Source of the DNA: the human T2T-CHM13v2.0 reference genome, Homo sapiens
Assembly: GCF_009914755.1 (NCBI RefSeq)
Contig: NC_060925.1
Reading direction: 5' to 3' (one strand)
Length of the DNA stretch: 64,000 nt
In this document: positions 45,250 to 55,320 of the stretch, in pieces
Position numbering within the stretch: the stretch's first letter is position 1
How the letters are laid out: each line of letters begins with the position of its first letter
The notes under the pieces: model-generated
Database searches by the model: none
What the model was told of the DNA's origin: nothing
What the model saw: only the letters and a program-made list of their open reading frames with translations
Made by a program: the position numbers and the translations under genes

Positions 45250-45851
45250 CCGTTAATCCAACAAAGATCTACAAAAAGCTTACAGCAAATGTCATACTTA
45301 ATGGTGAAATATTAAAAGACTTTGCCTTTGGGACCTGGAATAAAACAAGGATTTCTCTTATCATTACTTCTTGGAAGTCTTAGACAGTGCAATAAGGCAA
45401 AAAAAAAAAAAAAATCCTAATGATTGGGAAAAAAGATGGGTTACTATTTGCAGATGACCATGATTGTGTATGGAGAAAATCTAAAATAATCTATACACAA
45501 ATTATTATCTCTCATGCATAAACTTGGCAAGGTTAATGGATACAGAGCAAGATGCAAAAATAAACTGTTTTATATGCTAGCAGCAATAAACAGAAAGTGA
45601 AATTTTAATAAAGATATGTTTACAATAGCATAAAAACCTGACTACTTGGGAACAGATCTAACAAGAGTTTTTTTCTGAAAACTGAAACAATATTGGAAGA
45701 AATTGAAGAAGAAAATAAACAGAAACATCTTGTTTGTAGATCAGAAAACCTAATATTGTGAAAAATTTCATTTTTTCCTAAATTGATTTACAGATTTGAC
45801 ACGATCCCAATCAAACCCCATACCTTTTTAGGTGTAGAAATTTCACAGTTG
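45250..45851 (+). mobile_element. Old L1ME ORF2 fragment (left half of the host element)
   Basis: cttacagcaaatgtcatacttaatggtgaa; ctatttgcagatgac (LFADD); ends cccaatcaaa..gtagaaatttcacagttg. Confidence 0.85.
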
Positions 45852-46008
45852 GGAGACTGGCCTAGCCTCTCAGCCTACATCTTTCTCCCGTGTTGGATGC
45901 TTCTTGCTCTTGAACATCAGACTTCAGGTTCTTCAGTTTTGGGACTCAGACTGACACTCCTTGCTCCTCAGCCTGCAGACAGCCTATTGTGGGACCTTGT
46001 GATCATGT
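45852..46008 (+). mobile_element. MLT2A (HERVL LTR) fragment: transcribed part only, ending at the internal splice donor position
   Basis: gagactggcctagcctc..cctacatctttctcccgtg..ggatgcttc..cttgaacatcagact..gcctattgtgggaccttgtgatcatgt; U3 and the 3' LTR end are absent. Confidence 0.88.
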
Positions 46009-47438
46009 CTCAAGCATTTTTCCAGATTTTTTTTCTGCTAAGCTCACCATTGTTTTGGCTTTGAAGCTCAACGTGATAGAGGCGGTGCCAAGATGGCAGA
46101 CCAGAAACAGCAGCGATCAGAGGCTCCCATGGAAAAGAACCATAATAAGTGAAAAGAACCATAATAAGCATGTGAATCCTTTACCACTAACCAAGGTATC
46201 CAGGTTCCGTCATCACAACGGACTAGGAGGCTGGCCTGATCCACGGAGAGGAAGGAAGAGCGTGGCAGCCCACCTGAGAGCCACACGGGGCAGGGGAACC
46301 CTCAACCCCCAGCCAAGGGAGGCAGTGAGTGAGCGTGCTACCCAGCTGGGGAAACTGTGCTTTTTCCACAGAACTGTACAACTCACAGATCGGAAGATCC
46401 CACTCACAAACGTGTGCCACTGGGGCCTAGAGTCCCAACCCCCGAGCCGCGCAGATTCTCAACAGCCTCTCAGCTGGAATCCCCTTAAGCCTATGGAGCT
46501 CCCGGGGAGGGAGGGGCAACCAGCACCATAACTGAGGCTGCCTGCTGTCTAAGCCATTTGAGCTCCTCGAGGGAGGAGCAGCAGCCAGCACTAGGACCCA
46601 CAACAGCCTAACACACTAAGCTCCCTGGGTGGGGGAAGGGCAGCATTCATCTCTATAGCTCCAGGCTGTGCTTTTTCCCTGCTGAAGTCAGGGGAGGGAG
46701 GGAGGCTGGATGGCTTGGTCCCAAGATGTGTCTCCCACAGCCCAACACACCGGCTGTGGCAGACTGCAGCCAGAGTGCCTCTTCAGGCCTGACTCTGACT
46801 CATCTTTCCTCACTGGGTGGGGCTTCCTTGTAGGAACTCCAATAACTCCAGCCAAAGGCTCAGGGATAGAACTCAGGTCTCCCTGGGCCTAAGCCCCTAG
46901 AGGGAGGGGTGGCCACAGTCTCTGCAGACCAGCAGACTTAGCCTTTCCTCCTGATAGTTCTGAGGAATCTGGGCAGCCCGGATGAGTGGGTTTCCCCCCA
47001 AGCGAAGCACACCCCCCTCCACAAAGGGACAGTCAAAGTACTTTGTTAAACAGGTCCTGTTCCCTCTGCCACCCAACTGGACGAGACCCTCCAACAGGGG
47101 TTGTAAGATACCCTGTACAGGAACAATCCTGCTGGCATCAGGTTGGTGCCCCTCGAGGTCAGAGATCCCAGAAAAAGGAGCAGGCACCTGCCTTTGCTGT
47201 TCTCCAGCCTCCTCAAGTAATATCTCTGGGCTTGGGAGCAAACCAGATGAATAGTGCCTGAAGTGAACCCCTAGCAAATTGCAGCAGCCCTACAGAAGAG
47301 GGACTTGACCATTGAAAGAAAAACAAACAAACAGCAAAAACAACACCATCATCAACAACAACAACAACAACAACCCCCACAAAAACCCCATCCAAGTGTC
47401 AGCAGCCTCAAAGATCAAAACTAGACAAACTCACGAAG

Positions 47439-48462
47439 ATGAGAAAGAATCAATGAAAAAATGCTGAAAACCCAAAAGGACAGAGTGCCTCCTTTCCTCC
47501 AAATGATTGCAACATCTCTCCAGCAAGGGTGCAGAATGGGACAGAGCATGAGATGGATGACAGAAACGGACTTCAGAAGATGGGTAATAAAAAACTATGC
47601 TGAGCTACGGGGGCATATTCTAACCTGATGCAAAGAAGCCAAGAACCTGATAAAAGGTTAGAGGAGCTGCTAACTAGAATAACCAGTTTTGAAAGGAGCA
47701 TAAATGACCTAATGGAGCTGAAAAACACAGCATGAGAACTTTGTGAAGGATACACAAGTATCAACAGCTGAATCGACCAAGCAGAAGAAAGGATATCAGA
47801 GTTTGATGACCACATTATTGAAATAAGGCATGCAGACAAGACTAGAGAAAAAAGAATGAAAAGGAATTAACAAAGCCTCCAAGAAATATGGGACTTCATA
47901 AAAAGACCAAACCTGTGATTGATTGGAGTACTTGAAGGAGACGGAGAGAATAGAAACAAGCTAGAAAACATATTTCAGGATATTATCCAGGAGCACTTCC
48001 CCAACCCAGCAAGACAGGCCAACATGCAAATTCAGAAAATACAGAGAACACCACTAAGATACACCACAAGAAGATCAGCCCCAAGACACATAATCATCAG
48101 ATTCTCCAAGGTCGAAATGAAGGAAAAAATGAAAAATGTTAAGGGCAGCCAGAGAGAAAGGCCAGGTCACCGACAAAGGGAAGCTCATTAGACTAACAGC
48201 AGACCTTTCAGGAGAAACTCTGCAAGTCAGAAGAGATTGGGGGCCAATATTCAACATTCGTAAAAGAATTTTCAACTCAGAATTTCATATCCAGCCAAAC
48301 TAAGCTTCATAAGCAAAGGAGAAATAAAATCCTTTCCAGAGAAAAAGATGCTGAGGGATTTCGTTACCACCAGGCCTGCCATTGCAAGAGCTCCTGAAGG
48401 AAGCTCTAAACATGGAAAGGAAAAACTGGTACCAACCACTGCAAAAACACACCAAAATATAA
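47439..48462 (+). pseudogene. L1 ORF1p remnant (stops and frameshifts)
   Basis: Starts MRKNQ*KNAENPKGQSA; track ORF 47919-48191 has IGVLEGDGENRNKLENIFQDIIQEHFPN..RHIIIRFSKVEMKEK. Confidence 0.9.
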
Positions 48463-49243
48463 AGACCAACGACACTATGAAAAAACTGCATCAACTAATG
48501 TGCAAAATAACCAGCTAGCATTATGATGACAGGATCAAATTCACACATAACAATACTAACCTTTAATGTAAATGGGCTAAATGCCCCATTTGAAAGACAC
48601 AGACTGGCAAATTGGATAAAGAGTCAAGATCCATTGGTGTGCTGTATTCAGGAGACTCAACTCATGTGCAAAGACACACATAGGCTCAGAATAAAGGGAT
48701 GGAGGAATATTTACCAAGCAAATGGAAAGCAAAAAACAGCAGGGGTTGCAATCCTAGTCTCTGACAAAACAGACTTTAAACCAAGAAAGATAAAAAAAAA
48801 AAAGAAGGGTAATGGTAAAGGGAACAATGCAACAAGAAGAGCTAACTATTCTAAATATATATGCACCCAATACAGAAGCACCCAGATTCATAAAACAAGT
48901 TCTTAGGAACCCAAAAAAGACTTAGGCTCCCACACAATAATACTGGGAAACTTTAACACCCCACTGTCAATATTAGACAGAATAATGAGACAGAAAATTA
49001 ACAAGGATATTCGGGACTTGAATTCTGCTCTGGATCAAGCAGACCTTGTAGATGTCTGCAGAACTCTCCACCACAAATCAACCGAATATACATTCTTCTC
49101 AGTGCCACATACTTATTCTAAAATTGACCACATAATTGAAAGTAAAACACTCCTCAGCAAATGCAAAAGAACTGAAATCATAACAAATAGTGTCTTAGAC
49201 CACAGTGCAATCAAATTAGAATTTAGGACTAAGAAACTCACTT

Positions 49244-49563
49244 GGCCAGGCACAGTGGCTCATGCCTGTAATCCCAGAACTTTGGGAGGCCGAGGCAGGT
49301 GGATCTTCAGGTCAGGAGTTTGAGACCAGCCTGGCCAACATAGTGAAACTCCATCTCTGCTAAAAATAGAAAAAATTAGCTGGGTGTGGTGGTGTGCACC
49401 TGTAATCTCAGCACTCAGGAGGCTGAGACAGTAGAATCGCATGAATCCAGGAGGTGGAGGTTGCAGTGAGCCAAGATCACGCCATTGCGCTCCAGCCTGG
49501 GTGACGGTGCAAGACTCCATCTAAAAAACAAAAAACAAAAAACAAAAAAACAAACAAAAAAAA
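49244..49563 (+). mobile_element. AluS inserted in L1 ORF2
   Basis: Full Alu with (A)nC tail; TSD core aactcact at 49235-49242 and 49568-49575. Confidence 0.94.
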
Positions 49564-50946
49564 CCACAACTCACTCAAAACCACACAATTTCATGGAAAT
49601 TGAACAACTTGCTCCTGAATGACTCCTGGGTAAATAATGAAATTAAGGCAGAAATCAAGAAGTTATTTGAAATCAGTGAGAACAAAGAGACAACCTACCA
49701 GAATCTCTGGGACACAGCTAAAGCAGTGTTAAGAGGGAAATTTATAGCACTATATGCCCACATCAGAAAGCTAGAAAGATCTCAAATCAACCCTAACATC
49801 ACAATTTAAAGAGCTAGAGTGAAAGGAAAACTAATCCAAAAGCTAGCAGAAGACAAGAAATAACTAAAATCAGAGCAGAATTGAAGGAGATAGAGACATG
49901 AAGAACCCTCCAAAGTATCAATGAATCCAGGAGCTGGTTTTTTGAAAAAATTAACAAAATAAACCACTAGCTAGACTAATAAAGAAGAAAGAGAAGAATC
50001 AAATAGACACAATAAAAAATGATTAAAGGGGATATCACCACTGACCCCACAGAAATACAAACTAGCATCAGAGAATACTATAAAAACTTCTATGTAAATA
50101 AACTAGAAAATCTAAAAGAAATAGATAAATTCCTGGACACATACACCTTCCCAAGACTAAACCAGGAAGAGGTTGAATCCTTGAATAGACCAATAACAAG
50201 TTCTAAAATTGAGGCAATAATTAATAGCCTACAAACAACAAAAAAAGTCCAGGACCAGACGGATTCACAGCTGAATTCTACCAGAGGTACAAAGAGGAGC
50301 TTGTGCCATTCCTTCTGAAACTATTCCAAAGAATTGAAAAGCAGAGACTCCTCCTGAACTGATTTTATGACACCAGCATCATCCTGATACCAAAACCGGG
50401 AAGAGGCAACAAAAAAAGAAAACTTCAGGCCAATATCCCTGATGAACATCGATGCAAAAATCCTCAATAAAATACTGGCAAACCAAATCTAGCAGCACAT
50501 CAAAAACTTATCCACTATGATCAAGTTGGCTCTATCCCTGGGATGGAAGGCTGGTTCAACATACACAAATCAATAAATGTAATCCATCACATAAACGGAA
50601 GCGAAGACAAAAACTACATGATTATTTCAATAGAGGCAGGCAGAAAAGGCCTTTGACAATATTCAACATCCCTTCATGTTAAAAACTCTCAATAAACTAG
50701 GCATTGATGGAACATATCTCAAAATAATAAGAGCTATTTATGACAAACCCACAATGAATACCATACTGAATGGGCAAAAGCTGGAAGCATCCCCACTGAA
50801 AACCAACACAAGACCAAAGATGCCCTCTCTCACCACTCCTATTCAACATAGTATTGGAAGTTCTGGCTGGGCAATCAAGCAAGAGAAAGAAATAAAGGTA
50901 TTCAGATAGGAAGAGAGGAAGTCAAATTGTCTCTGTTTGCAGATGA

Positions 50947-51250
<304 letters not shown>

Positions 51251-52436
51251 GACATGATTTTATATTTAGAAAACCCCATCATCTCAGCCCCAAAACTCCT
51301 CAAACTGATAAGCAACTTCAGCAAAGTCTCAGCATACAAAATTAATGTGCAAAAATCACAAGCATTCCTTTACACCAATAGACAAGCAGAAAGTCAACTC
51401 ATGAATGAACTCCCATTGACAGTCATTACAAAGACAATAAAATACCTAGGAATGCAGCTAACAAGGGATATGAAGGACTTCTTCAAGGAGAACTACAAAC
51501 CACTGTTCAAGCAAATAAGAAAGGACACAAACAAATAAAAAAACATTTCATCCTCATGGATAGGAAGAATAAATATCATGAAAATGGCCATACTGCCCAA
51601 AGGAATTTTTAAATTCAATGTTATTCCTATCAAACTACCATTGACATTCTTCACAAAATTAGAAAAAACTACTTTAAATTTCATATGGAATCAAAGAAGA
51701 CCCCATATAGCCAAGACAATCCTAGGCAAAAAGAACAAAGCTTGAGGCATCACGCTACCTGACTTCAAACTATACTGCAAGGCTACAGTAACCAAAACAG
51801 CATGGCACTTGTACCAAAACAGACATATAGACCAATGGAACAGGACAGAGACCTCAGAAATAACACCATACATCTACAACCATCTGATCTTCGACAAACC
51901 TGATAAAAAGCAATGGGGAAAGGATCTCCTATTCAATAAATGGTGCTCAGAAAACTGGCTAGCCATATGCAGAAAACTGAAACTGGACCCCTTCCTTATA
52001 CCTTATACAAAAATTAACTCAAGATGGATTAAAGACTTAAATGTAAAACCCCAAACCATAAAATCCCTAAAAGAAAACCTAGACAGTACCATTCAGGACA
52101 CAGACATGGGCAATGACCTCATAATCAAAATGCCAAAAGCAATTGCAACAAAAGCCAAAATTGGCAAATGGGATCTAATTAAACTAAAGAACTTCTGCAC
52201 AACAAAAGAAACTATTATCAGAGTGAACAGGCAACCTACAGAATGGGAAAAATTTTTTGCAATCTACCCATCTGACAAAGGTCTAATATCCAGAATATAC
52301 AAGGAACTTAAAGAAATTTACAAGAAAAATCAAACAACCCAGTCAAAAAGTGGGCAAAGGACATGAACAGACCGTTCTCAAAAGAAGACATTTATGTGGC
52401 CAACAAACATATGAAAAAAAGCTCAACATCACTGAT

Positions 52437-52784
52437 TGATATGGTTTGGCTGTGTCCCCACACAAATCTCAACTTGAGTTGTATCTCACAGAATTCCCAT
52501 GTGTTGTGAAAGGGACCCAGAGGGAGGTAATTGAATCATGGGGACTGGTCTTTCCCATGCTCTTCTAGTGATAGTGAATAAGTCTCACAAGATCTGATGG
52601 GTTTATCAGGGGCTTTTGCTTCTTCCTCATTTTCTCTTGCTGCCACCACGTAAGAAGTGCCTTTTGCCTTCTGCCATGATTCTGAGGCCTCCCCAGCCAT
52701 ATGGAACTGCAAGTCCAGTTAAACCTCTTTTTGTTCCCGGTTTTGGGTGCGTCTTTATCAGCCGTGTGAAAATGAACTAATACA
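52437..52784 (+). mobile_element. THE1A solo LTR inserted in L1 ORF2
   Basis: tgatatggtttggctgtgtcccca..gggtttatcagggg..gtaagaagtgcc..actaataca; TSD ctgat/ctcat. Confidence 0.92.
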
Positions 52785-53515
52785 CTCATCATTTGAGAAA
52801 TGCAAATCAAAACTACAATGAGATACCATCTCATGCCAGTCAGAATGGTGATTATTAAAAAGTCAAGAAATGATAGATGCTGGTGAGGCTGTGGAGAAAT
52901 AGGAACGCTTTTACGCTGTTGGTGGGAATGTAAATTAGTTCAACCATTGTGGAAGACAGTATGGCAGTTCCCCCAAGGGTCTAGAACCAGAAATATCATA
53001 TGACCCAGCAAACCCATTACTGAGTATATACCCAAAGGAATATAAATTATTCTACTATAAAGACACACGCACACGTATGTCTATTGCAGCACTATTACAA
53101 TAGCAAATTCGTGGAACCAACCCATGTGCCCATCAATGATAGACTGAATAAAGAAAATGTGGTACATATATGCCATGGAATACTATGCAGCCATAAAAAG
53201 GAATGAGATTATGTCCTTTGCAGGGACATGGATGAAGCTGGAAGCCATCATCCTTGCAAACTAACACAGGAACAGAAAACCAAACACCGCATGTTCTTAC
53301 TCATAAGTGGGAGTTGAACAATGAGAACACATGGACACAGGGTGGGGAACATCACACACCAGGGCCTGTTAGGGGGTCGGGGGCAAGAGGAGGGAACTTA
53401 GAGGGTGGGTCAATAGGTGCAGCAAACCACCATGGCACATGTATACCTATGTAACAAACCTACACGTTCTGCATATGTATCCTGGAACTTAAAGTAAAAT
53501 TAAAAAAAAAAAAAA

Positions 53516-55320
53516 AGAAAATTACAAGTTGAACCTAAAATGTATGTGGAAATGCAAGATGCTAGGACTTGTCAAGGCAATCTAGCCAGCACTTACACTT
53601 TTATATAGAAAGAAGTGAAAATAGATGAAGGACTTAGACTACTAGATACCAATTCCTATTTAAAAACATAGTAATAAGAGTATAATACTGACACACGGAT
53701 GGACAAAGACAGACCATAAAAAGAGAAAGTCCAGAAATATACCCACAAATATACAGTCATTTGATTTGTAAGACCACACACTGCAGTGTGGTGGTGAAAT
53801 TATTTTTATTTCAATAAATGCTGCCAAGTTAACTGGCTATTTATATGAAAAAAGATGACAGGTGCATGGTAGACCTAATTGTGAAAGCAAAAGCAAGCAA
53901 AAACAAAACAGAAACAAAACCAGAAACCAAAAACCCTCCTAGAAGAAAATGTAGGAGAGCAGATTTATGATTTTGAGGCAGTCAACATTGTTTTAAATGA
54001 GATCCAGAAAGCTCTAACCATAACGAAAAAAGGAACTGGTAAATAGGACTACATTAAAATTGAGAGCTTCTGTTCTTCAACAGATACTATTAAGGGAGTT
54101 AAAAGGCAGTTCATGGAATGGAAAAAGACATTTGCAATATATTTGACAAAAGACTCATTTACATAATATATAAAGGCCCTTACAAATCAATAATAAGAAA
54201 GCAGGCAATTTAATAGAAAAAATGGGCAAAGGGTTTTAGCATTCACCTCCCAAAAGAGGATATCTAAACTGCCCAAAAAAAAAAGCAAATGTCCAACGTC
54301 ATTAGAAATCAGGGAACCGTGAATTAAAACCACCGTGATATACAACTATGCCCACACCCAATGGCTAAAAATTGAAAATGACAGATGATATCTAATGTTG
54401 AGAAAAATGTGGCACAACCAAAACAATCATATATTGCTGATAGTGGTGTAAATTGGTGCAACTATTTTGGAAAAGTGTTTGGCAGTATCTACAAATGTTG
54501 AGAATACATTCCTATAGACATAACCATCTGAAATGCATATGTATGTTCACCAAAATACATGTGCATAAATACCAGTACATTTACATAGTACAAAAATGTA
54601 CAATGTCAATACCAGCACTATTCATGTTAGTCCTAAAGTGAAAACAACTCAAATATCTATAAACAGAAAAATGAATAAATATAAATCATGATATAGTCAT
54701 GTAATGGCACACTGCAGCAATGGGGTGCTTAGTGACTAGAAGAAGCACGATGAGAATTTCCTAGGGAGTACTGGTGATGTTCTGTTTCTTGATCCAGGTG
54801 CTGGTTTTGTAGGTGCATTCACTCAGTGAAAGCTCATTGAGCTGTTCCTTTATGATTTGTGCACTTTGTACATAGTGTTTGCTATGGTTTGAATGTCTCC
54901 TCCAAAACTCATGTTGGAGCTTACTTAATCTCCAGTGTGGCAGTATTGAGAGATGGGGCCTTTAGGAGGTGATTAAATAATGAGGTCTCTGTTCTCAGGA
55001 ATGGATTAATGGGTTAATGAATTAATGGGTTATCACGGGGGTGGGGAACTGGTGGCTTTATAAGAAAAGGAAAAGAGAACTGAGCCAGCATGTTAGTACA
55101 CTCAGCCCCTCGCCACCCGATGCCCTGTGCCACCATGGGATGCCACAGAGAGTCCCCATCAGCAAGAAGTCTCTTATCAGATGCACTCCCTCCGCTTTAG
55201 ACTTTCCAGCCTCCATAACTGCAAGAAATAAATTTCTTTTCTTTATAAATTACCCAGTGTCAGGTATTCTGTTATCAGCAACAGAAAATGGTCTAAGACA
55301 GTGTTATACTTGAATAAAAA
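53516..55320 (+). mobile_element. Old L1ME (right half of the host element, through the 3' end)
   Basis: Resumes collinearly with ctaaaatgtatgtggaaatgcaa; ends gtgttatacttgaataaaaa; split by an MSTB LTR. Confidence 0.85.
54880..55300 (+). mobile_element. MSTB1/2-like solo LTR
   Basis: tgctatggtttgaatgtc..ggattaatgggttaat..agcaacagaaaatggtctaagaca; perfect TSD gtgtt. Confidence 0.92.

What the first reader, a model, noticed from the sequence alone, without database searches (positions are those of the whole stretch)
45836..53531. Fossil of a spliced MLT2A-LTR / full-length L1 chimeric transcript that retrotransposed as one unit (LTR-driven 5' transduction)
Seen: an old L1ME breaks at 45851 and resumes collinearly at 53516. 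Its sequence is duplicated at the break (agaaatttcacagttg 45836-45851 / agaaaattacaagttg 53516-53531, 12/16 identical), consistent with a decayed TSD. Inside this pair lie, in order, an MLT2A piece (45852-46008), about 72 bp of unique spacer, and a full-length L1PA8A-like element with poly(A). Known (from recalled consensus): the MLT2A piece starts at GAGACTGG, about 30 bp downstream of the LTR TATA box and so near the expected TSS. It stops at GATC(G/A)T|GT, the LTR's internal splice donor. MLT2A1/2 are HERVL LTRs that act as cleavage-stage (ZGA/DUX4-responsive) promoters and splice into downstream sequence. Inference: a donor L1 elsewhere was transcribed from an upstream MLT2A promoter and spliced to an acceptor just 5' of the L1, and this mRNA was mobilised in cis. 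That would be fossil evidence of an embryonic ERVL promoter driving L1 retrotransposition, and a possibly undescribed chimeric L1 lineage.
Basis: partly seen in the sequence, partly recalled or inferred. Interest (0 to 1): 0.85.

Follow-up and report, generated by a model that had tools for sequence, protein, structure and literature searches.

The report
L1 fossil with spliced LTR-exon leader
A dead full-length L1 in a KAZN intron was inserted together with a two-exon leader that starts in a retroviral (ERV-L type) LTR and continues with an exon copied from chromosome 2; it is an old, uncatalogued example of a recently described way in which L1 picks up foreign 5' sequence.

Summary
An old L1 is interrupted at 45851/53516, and a 16-bp target duplication (12/16) brackets one block: LTR piece, short "spacer", full-length L1 and poly(A).

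The LTR piece starts 24-31 nt after the family's TATA box. It ends exactly where 25 of 29 genomic copies continue with GTRAGT.

The new result is that the "spacer" is a complete exon. Its only other copy in the genome is on chr2 (C2:153883818-153883890). There it has a pyrimidine tract and AG before it and GT after it. Its last base pairs abut nucleotides 1-3 of the L1.

So the leader is a spliced two-exon RNA, and leader plus L1 went in as one event. All three parts are about 6-9% diverged.

How the exon was joined to the L1 stays open. It could be cis- or trans-splicing, or a template jump by the reverse transcriptase. I found no source L1 within 100 kb downstream of the chr2 exon. The exon has no third copy, so there is no sign of a lineage.

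The mechanism class is already in print (Law & Burns 2026; the 8q21.11 L1, Nature 2025). This locus is not among the 17 cases they list. Verdict: a new member of a known kind, of moderate interest.

The parts
45640..45835 (+). Left part of the interrupted old L1 (ORF2 remains)
   Evidence: tblastx to the young L1's ORF2 (window 45643-45726 to L1 5365-5448); local alignment up to the break
45836..45851 (+). Left target-site duplication, preceded by GT (cleavage context GT/AGAA)
   Evidence: 12/16 identical to 53516-53531; both copies map to the same stretch of the old L1
45852..46006 (+). Leader exon 1: R-region piece of an ERV-L type LTR, from the TATA-predicted start site to the LTR's splice donor. 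It carries no U3, no TATA box and no poly(A) signal.
   Evidence: 90-93% to genomic copies; TATAA 24-31 nt upstream in 24/29 copies; GTRAGT follows in 25/29 copies; 10 of 157 sites differ from the majority of the 29 copies
46007..46081 (+). Leader exon 2: copy of a 73-nt exon-like unit at G000:C2:153883818-153883890 (+)
   Evidence: only one other genomic copy; on chr2 it has a pyrimidine tract and AG before it and GT after it; 9 transitions, 0 transversions, one 2-nt indel
46079..53501 (+). Full-length L1 with decayed reading frames. The first three bases, GAG, overlap the end of exon 2.
   Evidence: 9 of 11 related L1s begin at the base aligned to 46079. ORF1 RRM 47919-48140, ORF1 C-terminal domain 48264-48385, endonuclease about 48556-48780, RT pieces about 50640-50790 and 51250-51460; 8.1-8.7% from the majority of 9 relatives over 2.3 kb.
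49243..49554 (+). Alu inserted later into the L1
   Evidence: matches the Alu of L032, plus/plus
50952..51265 (-). Second Alu inserted later into the L1; it splits the RT region
53502..53515 (+). Poly(A) tail of the L1
53516..53531 (+). Right target-site duplication
53532..54100 (+). Right part of the interrupted old L1
   Evidence: collinear with the young L1's ORF2 from about 5575 onward

Best explanation
About 40 million years ago one L1-mediated insertion (target-primed reverse transcription) placed a composite template into an old L1 in what is now a KAZN intron.

The template had three parts:
1. An exon that starts at the TATA-directed start site of an ERV-L type LTR and ends at the LTR's GTRAGT donor.
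2. A 73-75 nt exon from chr2, joined to the first by ordinary cis-splicing.
3. A full-length L1 with poly(A).

Most likely the exon 2-to-L1 join was also made at the RNA level. The exon's donor would have been spliced, in cis or in trans, to an AG at the very start of an L1 transcript. The L1 proteins translated from that chimeric RNA then copied it in cis.

Today the element is an inert fossil. The L1 reading frames are broken, two Alus sit inside it, the leader brought no promoter, and no descendant carries the leader.

Shown:
- single target duplication;
- LTR start and donor positions;
- exon identity with AG/GT bounds at the source;
- L1 complete to its first bases;
- similar divergence of the three parts.

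Inferred:
- use of the LTR as promoter;
- the splice into the L1;
- the age.
For: **One insertion event**
- A single 16-bp duplication lies around the whole block, with a poly(A) tail and collinear host L1.
- No duplication lies around the L1 alone.

**Exon 1 (LTR piece)**
- The LTR piece begins 24-31 nt after TATAA in 24/29 copies.
- It stops where GTRAGT follows in 25/29 copies.

**Exon 2 (chr2 exon)**
- It has exactly one other genomic copy.
- That copy is flanked by a pyrimidine tract plus AG and by GT, exactly at the ends of the similarity.

**Candidate promoter on chr2**
- An LTR of the same family and strand lies 19.1 kb upstream of the chr2 exon.
- I expect about 0.02-0.03 such copies by chance in the 30 kb I examined. 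This estimate uses about 3500-7000 copies, where the upper figure is recalled.

**L1 part**
- The L1 is complete to the family's first bases.
- It retains ORF1, EN and RT remains.

**Same age for all parts**
- The LTR piece differs at 10/157 sites from the majority of the copies.
- The exon shows 9/73 differences between the two copies, about 6% per lineage.
- The L1 is 8.1-8.7% from the majority of its relatives.

**Published precedent**
- 17 exon-L1 chimeras have been published: 6 end at donors, and some have the L1 starting in its first 10 bp (PMC13174262, section 13 and Table S5).
- 22 spliced 5' transductions come from one source L1 (PMC12350158, section 19).
Against: - No + strand L1 5' UTR of this type lies within 100 kb downstream of the chr2 exon in this genome.
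- The family's usual 5' end (GGGG...) has no AG at positions 2-3. Only 1 of 9 relatives starts GAGG. A splice acceptor at the L1 start therefore needs a variant source and a branch site in its upstream flank.
- The chr2 LTR at -19.1 kb now lacks about 38 nt, including the donor. It is only 83% identical to the window's piece and shares none of its private changes.
- The start site rests on TATA spacing only.
- Presence or absence in other primates could not be examined.
Confidence: 0.55

Rival explanations
1. Template jump during reverse transcription. An ordinary full-length L1 RNA from any locus was copied to its 5' end. The reverse transcriptase then jumped onto the 3' end of a separate RNA consisting of LTR exon plus chr2 exon. 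A free 5'-exon splicing intermediate would be one such RNA. The enzyme copied that RNA to its cap. The leader and the L1 were therefore never one RNA.
For: - Both joined ends are natural RNA ends: L1 nucleotides 1-3 and the exact exon 3' end.
- A 3-nt overlap (GAG) sits at the joint.
- No source L1 lies within 100 kb downstream of the exon.
- In the published set, 15 of 17 source genes have no intronic L1. Many L1 parts start at the native 5' end, some with untemplated bases at the joint (PMC13174262, sections 13 and 20, Table S5).
- Template switching by the L1 enzyme is established for U6-L1 chimeras (PMC4859970 passages).
Against: - An RNA ending exactly at a splice donor is a short-lived, spliceosome-bound species.
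- Known U6-type chimeras involve 5'-truncated L1s and T-rich joints. Neither is seen here.
Confidence: 0.3
2. Plain copy of a chimeric parent. LTR piece, exon and L1 already lay contiguous as DNA at a source locus, an earlier chimeric L1. That locus was then transcribed and retrotransposed as usual, so this copy belongs to a small lineage.
For: - Two siblings with the same leader exist in the published set (RAP1GDS1, Table S5), so such lineages occur.
- The L1's own internal promoter was carried along intact in principle.
Against: - The exon has only two copies in the whole genome, this one and the intron-flanked chr2 one. No parent or sibling survives.
- A parent's transcript made from the L1's internal promoter would start at the L1, not at the leader's first base.
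- The leader starts exactly at the LTR's predicted start site, and the LTR piece has no TATA box of its own to reuse.
Confidence: 0.07
3. Independent events. An LTR fragment and some unique DNA were already at this site, and the L1 later inserted next to them. Alternatively, DNA repair patched the pieces together.
For: Nested repeats are the rule in such introns. The duplication is decayed (12/16).
Against: - The host L1 resumes collinearly after the poly(A), with the same 16 nt on both sides of the whole block.
- No duplication surrounds the L1 alone.
- All three internal boundaries fall on a start site, a donor, an acceptor and a donor.
- There is no LTR remainder on either side.
Confidence: 0.03

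Closest known systems
mRNA/lncRNA-L1 5' chimeric insertions (Law & Burns, Cell Genomics 2026, PMC13174262; e.g. MAP3K13-L1PA5, FHIT-L1PA4)
   Same: - First exons, already spliced to each other, lie in sense orientation and are fused to a near full-length L1.
- One TSD and a poly(A) tail surround the whole.
- The leader ends exactly at a splice donor.
- The L1 part starts within its first 10 bases with no evident L1 acceptor.
- No source L1 is found in the source locus (sections 13 and 20, Table S5).
   Different: - This locus is not among their 17: none lies near KAZN, and 'KAZN', 'MLT2A1' and 'MLT2A2' give 0 hits in the 4 readable supplement files. Three PDF supplements could not be read.
- The first exon here is LTR-derived and LTR-initiated.
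- The source transcript is not tied to an annotated gene here.
- This insertion is older and more decayed than the two examples described in the text (L1PA4, L1PA5).
Spliced 5' transductions from the 8q21.11 source L1 (Nature 2025, PMC12350158, section 19)
   Same: An upstream promoter and a lncRNA exon are spliced onto a full-length L1, which then retrotransposes with the exon as a 5' leader.
   Different: There the source L1 exists, lies downstream in cis, and the acceptors lie inside the L1 body. 22 offspring are known. Here there is no source, no offspring, and the join is at L1 nucleotides 1-3.
SVA_F1 (MAST2 exon 1-SVA) and SVA exon trapping
   Same: An upstream exon is spliced onto a non-LTR retrotransposon RNA and mobilised with it (PMC4859970 passages; PMC12350158).
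   Different: The SVA acceptor lies inside the Alu-like region. The captured CpG-island exon founded a subfamily. SVA is non-autonomous.
U6-L1 and other template-switch chimeric retrogenes
   Same: Two RNAs are joined head to tail inside one TSD by the L1 machinery (PMC4859970 passages).
   Different: Those have a full small RNA joined to a 5'-truncated L1 at variable, T-rich points. Here the L1 is full length and the partner ends at an exon boundary.
MLT2A1-headed chimeric RNAs of the human 8-cell embryo
   Same: A conserved 5' LTR head is fused to variable downstream sequence, often L1 or Alu (review PMC13690279 passages; commentary PMC13579372, whole text). MLT2A1 acts as a promoter of novel embryo isoforms (PMC10616205 passages).
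   Different: Those are RNAs seen today. This is a genomic copy of such an RNA. Whether the window's LTR piece is MLT2A1 by Dfam criteria was not testable. The primary study was not read.

Membership tests
L1-mediated (TPRT) insertion | Target-site duplication flanking the whole insert | tested here: met
   16 bp, 12/16 identical; chance 47/200000; host L1 collinear
L1-mediated (TPRT) insertion | 3' poly(A) tail | tested here: met
   A run 53502-53515
L1-mediated (TPRT) insertion | Endonuclease-type cleavage site (TT/AAAA-like) at the start of the duplication | tested here: inconclusive
   GT/AGAA. It is purine-rich after the nick, like GT/AWAA of the MAP3K13 case, but it is a weak match to the consensus.
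Exon-L1 5' chimeric insertion (Law & Burns class) | Leader maps to the start of a spliced transcript, sense to the L1 | tested here: inconclusive
   The leader is an LTR start-site exon plus an AG/GT-bounded chr2 exon, both sense. No transcript annotation or RNA data were available to confirm the transcript.
Exon-L1 5' chimeric insertion (Law & Burns class) | Leader ends at a splice donor | tested here: met
   Similarity to chr2 ends at ...GATAGAG|GT
Exon-L1 5' chimeric insertion (Law & Burns class) | Near full-length L1 | tested here: met
   Starts at the family's first bases; ORF1, EN and RT remains
Exon-L1 5' chimeric insertion (Law & Burns class) | Leader and L1 arrive at the same time in a multi-species alignment | not testable with these tools
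   No other primate genome is held. As a proxy, the three parts are similarly diverged at about 6-9%.
Classical unspliced 5' transduction | Leader collinear with the DNA directly upstream of the source L1 | tested here: not met
   The leader is two spliced pieces. On chr2 the exon is followed by intron-like sequence, not by an L1.
U6-type template-switch chimera | 5'-truncated L1 joined at a T-rich point to the 3' end of a small RNA | tested here: not met
   The L1 is full length and the joint reads GAG. A template jump as such is not excluded.
   Terminal TG...CA was seen in the chr2 copy.
   Integrase plus dUTPase frame in L014 and dUTPase frame in L021, both just upstream of the LTR; 2 of 29 loci. 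The 40 longest of 205 frames were scanned.
   No repeat library is held, and no primer or probe sequence was found in print.
L1PA8A | Match to the L1PA8A consensus | not tested
   No repeat library is held. The 5' UTR type differs from the L1PA-type UTR of a neighbouring element. About 1400 genomic matches to a 25-nt motif of this UTR's start were found, but that motif also matched the different-UTR L1.

The most novel reading that the evidence does not exclude
The exon-to-L1 joint was not made by splicing. The L1 reverse transcriptase, on reaching the capped 5' end of an ordinary L1 RNA, jumped end-to-end onto the free 3'-OH of a 5'-exon splicing intermediate: LTR exon plus chr2 exon, cleaved at its donor and waiting on a long intron.

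If so, this locus and the published cases with 'L1 starts in the first 10 bp, no acceptor' would be genomic footprints of contact between the L1 enzyme and active spliceosomes in the nucleus. The LTR head would also place the event in cells where ERV-L LTRs fire, that is the cleavage-stage embryo.
Probability: 0.15. Interest if true: 0.65.

Novelty: new member of a known kind. Interest (0 to 1): 0.4.

Why it matters
- It adds a clean, old and uncatalogued case to a small published set: 17 in hg38, plus one active source locus. In these cases L1 acquired foreign 5' exons, a route proposed for how L1 repeatedly replaced its 5' UTR (PMC13174262, section 22).
- It is the only case I met in which the leader begins at a retroviral LTR start site. 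If the LTR is MLT2A-like, the template formed where ERV-L LTRs are active. That fits heritable L1 insertion in the early embryo. The tissue inference is indirect.
- The joint is exon donor boundary to L1 nucleotides 1-3 with a 3-nt overlap. That bears on the open question of splicing versus template jump.
- It has no evident present function. The leader carried no promoter and left no descendants.

Tried and rejected
**Source L1 on chr2**
- I fetched and scanned C2:153854001-153985000 (blastn).
- Downstream of the exon there are only antisense or truncated L1 pieces and no 5' UTR match.

**Pattern scan for L1 5' ends**
- It gave 1439 matches, of which only 100 were listed.
- One is a + strand L1 187 kb upstream of the exon. 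It has a different 5' UTR type and lies on the wrong side. Rejected as the source.

**Donor LTR**
- The same-family LTR at -19.1 kb shares none of the window piece's 10 private changes and now lacks the donor.
- The second LTR, at -22.5 kb, has an extra segment of about 125 nt that the window lacks. Rejected as donor.
- Sequence cannot pick the donor, because the window's piece is about as far from the family majority as its post-insertion decay alone would give.

**Siblings**
- The exon query found only itself and chr2.

**Family names**
- No repeat library is held.
- A search for printed MLT2A1 primers gave none in the two papers opened.

**Prior print of an MLT2A-led L1 insertion**
- Searches found none in the held library.

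**Closed or unavailable sources**
- Buzdin 2003 (PMC169886) is not held.

**Other**
- Direct blastn of the left flank against the young L1 found nothing. tblastx and a local alignment did find the match.

Full report
**What is in the sequence**

An old L1 (ORF2 remains, + strand) is interrupted between 45851 and 53516. Its two sides align to neighbouring parts of the ORF2 of the younger L1 that sits between them. The overlap corresponds to the 16 nt that appear on both sides.

The two copies are AGAAATTTCACAGTTG (45836-45851) and AGAAAATTACAAGTTG (53516-53531), 12 of 16 identical. Among 200000 random pairs of 16-mers from the same flanks, 47 reach that level.

The right copy follows an A run (53502-53515). 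The left copy follows GT, giving a GT/AGAA nick context.

The 25 nt before the L1 proper and the 25 nt after the poly(A) share no more than a 5-nt run. There is therefore one duplication around the whole block and none around the L1 alone.

**The LTR piece**

Window 45852-46008 finds thousands of relatives in the window's own genome: 3587 first-look candidates, of which 40 were scored, at 90-93% identity. I fetched 29 of them with flanks.

- In 24 of 29 a TATAA lies 24-31 nt (mostly 27-29) upstream of the base aligned to 45852.
- In 25 of 29 the base aligned to 46006 is followed by GTGAGT or GTAAGT, and then by an AATAAA signal.

The piece is thus the stretch from the expected start site to a consensus 5' splice site. 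It contains neither the TATA box nor the poly(A) signal. The first G (45852) could be the LTR's own base or a cap-derived extra G; this cannot be told.

Two of the 29 loci carry, just upstream of the LTR and in its orientation, open frames with a dUTPase domain; in L014 an integrase domain precedes it (the 40 longest of 205 frames were scanned). From recalled knowledge this is the ERV-L arrangement.

The label MLT2A itself could not be tested. No repeat library is held, and no printed probe was found.

**The spacer is an exon**

Window 46005-46082 has exactly one other match in 3.1 Gb, on contig C2. Read in place, the chr2 unit is 73 nt long (C2:153883818-153883890, + strand). A long pyrimidine tract and AG precede it, and GTGATC follows it.

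The similarity to the window begins at the first base after the AG and ends at the last base before the GT. The two copies differ by 9 substitutions, all transitions, and a 2-nt change in a T run.

So the leader has two canonical exon-exon features:
- LTR donor to chr2 acceptor at 46006/46007.
- The chr2 donor boundary at 46081.

This is strong evidence for a spliced RNA.

**The join to the L1**

Nine of 11 related full-length L1s begin, after unrelated flanks, at the base aligned to 46079, with GGGG or a close variant. One begins GAGG. The window reads GAGGCGG.

The exon's last three bases therefore coincide with L1 positions 1-3. The L1 is complete to its natural end, and there are no extra bases at the joint.

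The L1 keeps recognisable ORF1, endonuclease and RT remains. It holds two later Alu insertions.

**One age**

- The LTR piece differs from the majority of the 29 copies at 10 of 157 sites.
- The exon copies differ at 9 of 73 sites, about 6% per lineage.
- The first 2.3 kb of the L1 is 8.1-8.7% from the majority of nine relatives.

These values fit a single event some tens of millions of years ago. The rate used for that date is recalled, and no outgroup could be examined.

**The source locus**

Upstream of the chr2 exon, on the same strand, lie two LTRs.
- A same-family LTR lies at -19.1 kb. Its TATA box is intact, but about 38 nt including the donor and the poly(A) signal are missing. It is 83% identical to the window's piece and shares none of its private changes.
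- A related LTR lies at -22.5 kb. It has an extra segment of about 125 nt that the window lacks, so it is not the donor.

A same-strand copy within the 30 kb examined is expected by chance only about 0.02-0.03 times, so the first LTR is a fair candidate promoter. Sequence cannot confirm it.

Downstream, 100 kb holds no + strand L1 5' UTR of this type.

A + strand L1 start 187 kb upstream turned up in a pattern scan (100 of 1439 matches listed). It has a different 5' UTR.

**Mechanism**

That the block went in as one unit by the L1 machinery I hold at about 0.9. That LTR exon and chr2 exon were joined by ordinary splicing I hold at about the same level.

The exon-L1 join has two serious readings.

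1. RNA-level splicing (0.55). It could be in cis, from an L1 then present downstream and since lost, or in trans. It explains the exact donor boundary, but it needs an AG at L1 positions 2-3 and a branch site in the source's flank.
2. An end-to-end template jump of the reverse transcriptase from the L1 RNA's 5' end onto an RNA ending at the exon boundary (0.30). It explains why both joined ends are natural ends, the 3-nt overlap and the missing source. It needs an unusual partner RNA.

A chimeric parent copy (0.07) and independent insertions (0.03) fit poorly.

**What is known**

Hancks & Kazazian 2016 call L1 5' transductions almost non-existent and describe exon trapping for SVA (PMC4859970, passages).

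Since then two papers have changed that picture.
- Nature 2025 reports one source L1 whose 22 germline offspring carry a lncRNA exon spliced onto the L1 (PMC12350158, section 19).
- Law & Burns 2026 list 17 hg38 insertions with first exons fused to mostly near full-length L1s. Six end exactly at donors. Some have the L1 part starting in its first 10 bp with no acceptor. Fifteen lack an L1 in the source gene. The authors favour cis- or trans-splicing (PMC13174262, sections 13, 20, 22, 23 and all of Table S5).

The present locus matches that class feature for feature. It is not in their table, and KAZN, MLT2A1 and MLT2A2 give no hit in the four readable supplement files. Three PDF supplements could not be read.

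MLT2A1-headed chimeric RNAs with L1 or Alu tails are reported in human 8-cell embryos. I read only a review's passages and a commentary, not the primary study.

Searches for an MLT2A-led L1 insertion in print found none.

**Verdict**

- The finding is a new member of a known kind, without descendants and without present function.
- Its value is as a clean LTR-initiated example and as one more exon-boundary-to-L1-nt-1 joint for the unresolved question of how such joints form.

Noticed in passing
window 46007-46081 versus L032:1495-1567: All 9 substitutions between the two exon copies are transitions, with 0 transversions. Directions are mixed, so no editing signature can be read without an outgroup.
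   Followed up: partly
L057:7258-7980 and L045:362-772 (C2:153861258-153861980 and C2:153864362-153864772): Two related ERV-L type LTRs lie on the same strand 3.1 kb apart, upstream of the chr2 exon. One has lost its TATA box but keeps GTGAGT. The other keeps the TATA box but lacks about 38 nt, including the donor and the poly(A) signal, next to a TA microsatellite.
   Followed up: partly
window 49243-49554 (+) and 50952-51265 (-): Two Alu elements inserted into the L1 after its arrival. The second splits the RT region.
   Followed up: partly
window 45914-46531 (+): A stop-free frame of 205 codons runs from the LTR exon through the chr2 exon into the L1 5' UTR. It is probably chance.
   Followed up: no
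L047 (C2:153886366-153891547 and 153892537-153895131, - strand): Two antisense L1 bodies, 81-87% identical to the window's L1, lie 2.5-11 kb downstream of the chr2 exon. Their orientation excludes them as a cis source.
   Followed up: partly
L019:656-1114, L005:2154-2612, L022:2616-3002: Next to three of the fetched LTR copies lie frames matching ribosomal protein L32 (probably a processed pseudogene), a GPS motif and a fibulin C-terminal domain (probably gene exons).
   Followed up: no
L058 (C2:153696858, + strand): A + strand L1 5' end 187 kb upstream of the chr2 exon shares only the first 30 nt or so with the window's L1 5' UTR. The 25-nt start motif is thus common to L1 families with otherwise unrelated UTRs.
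   Followed up: yes
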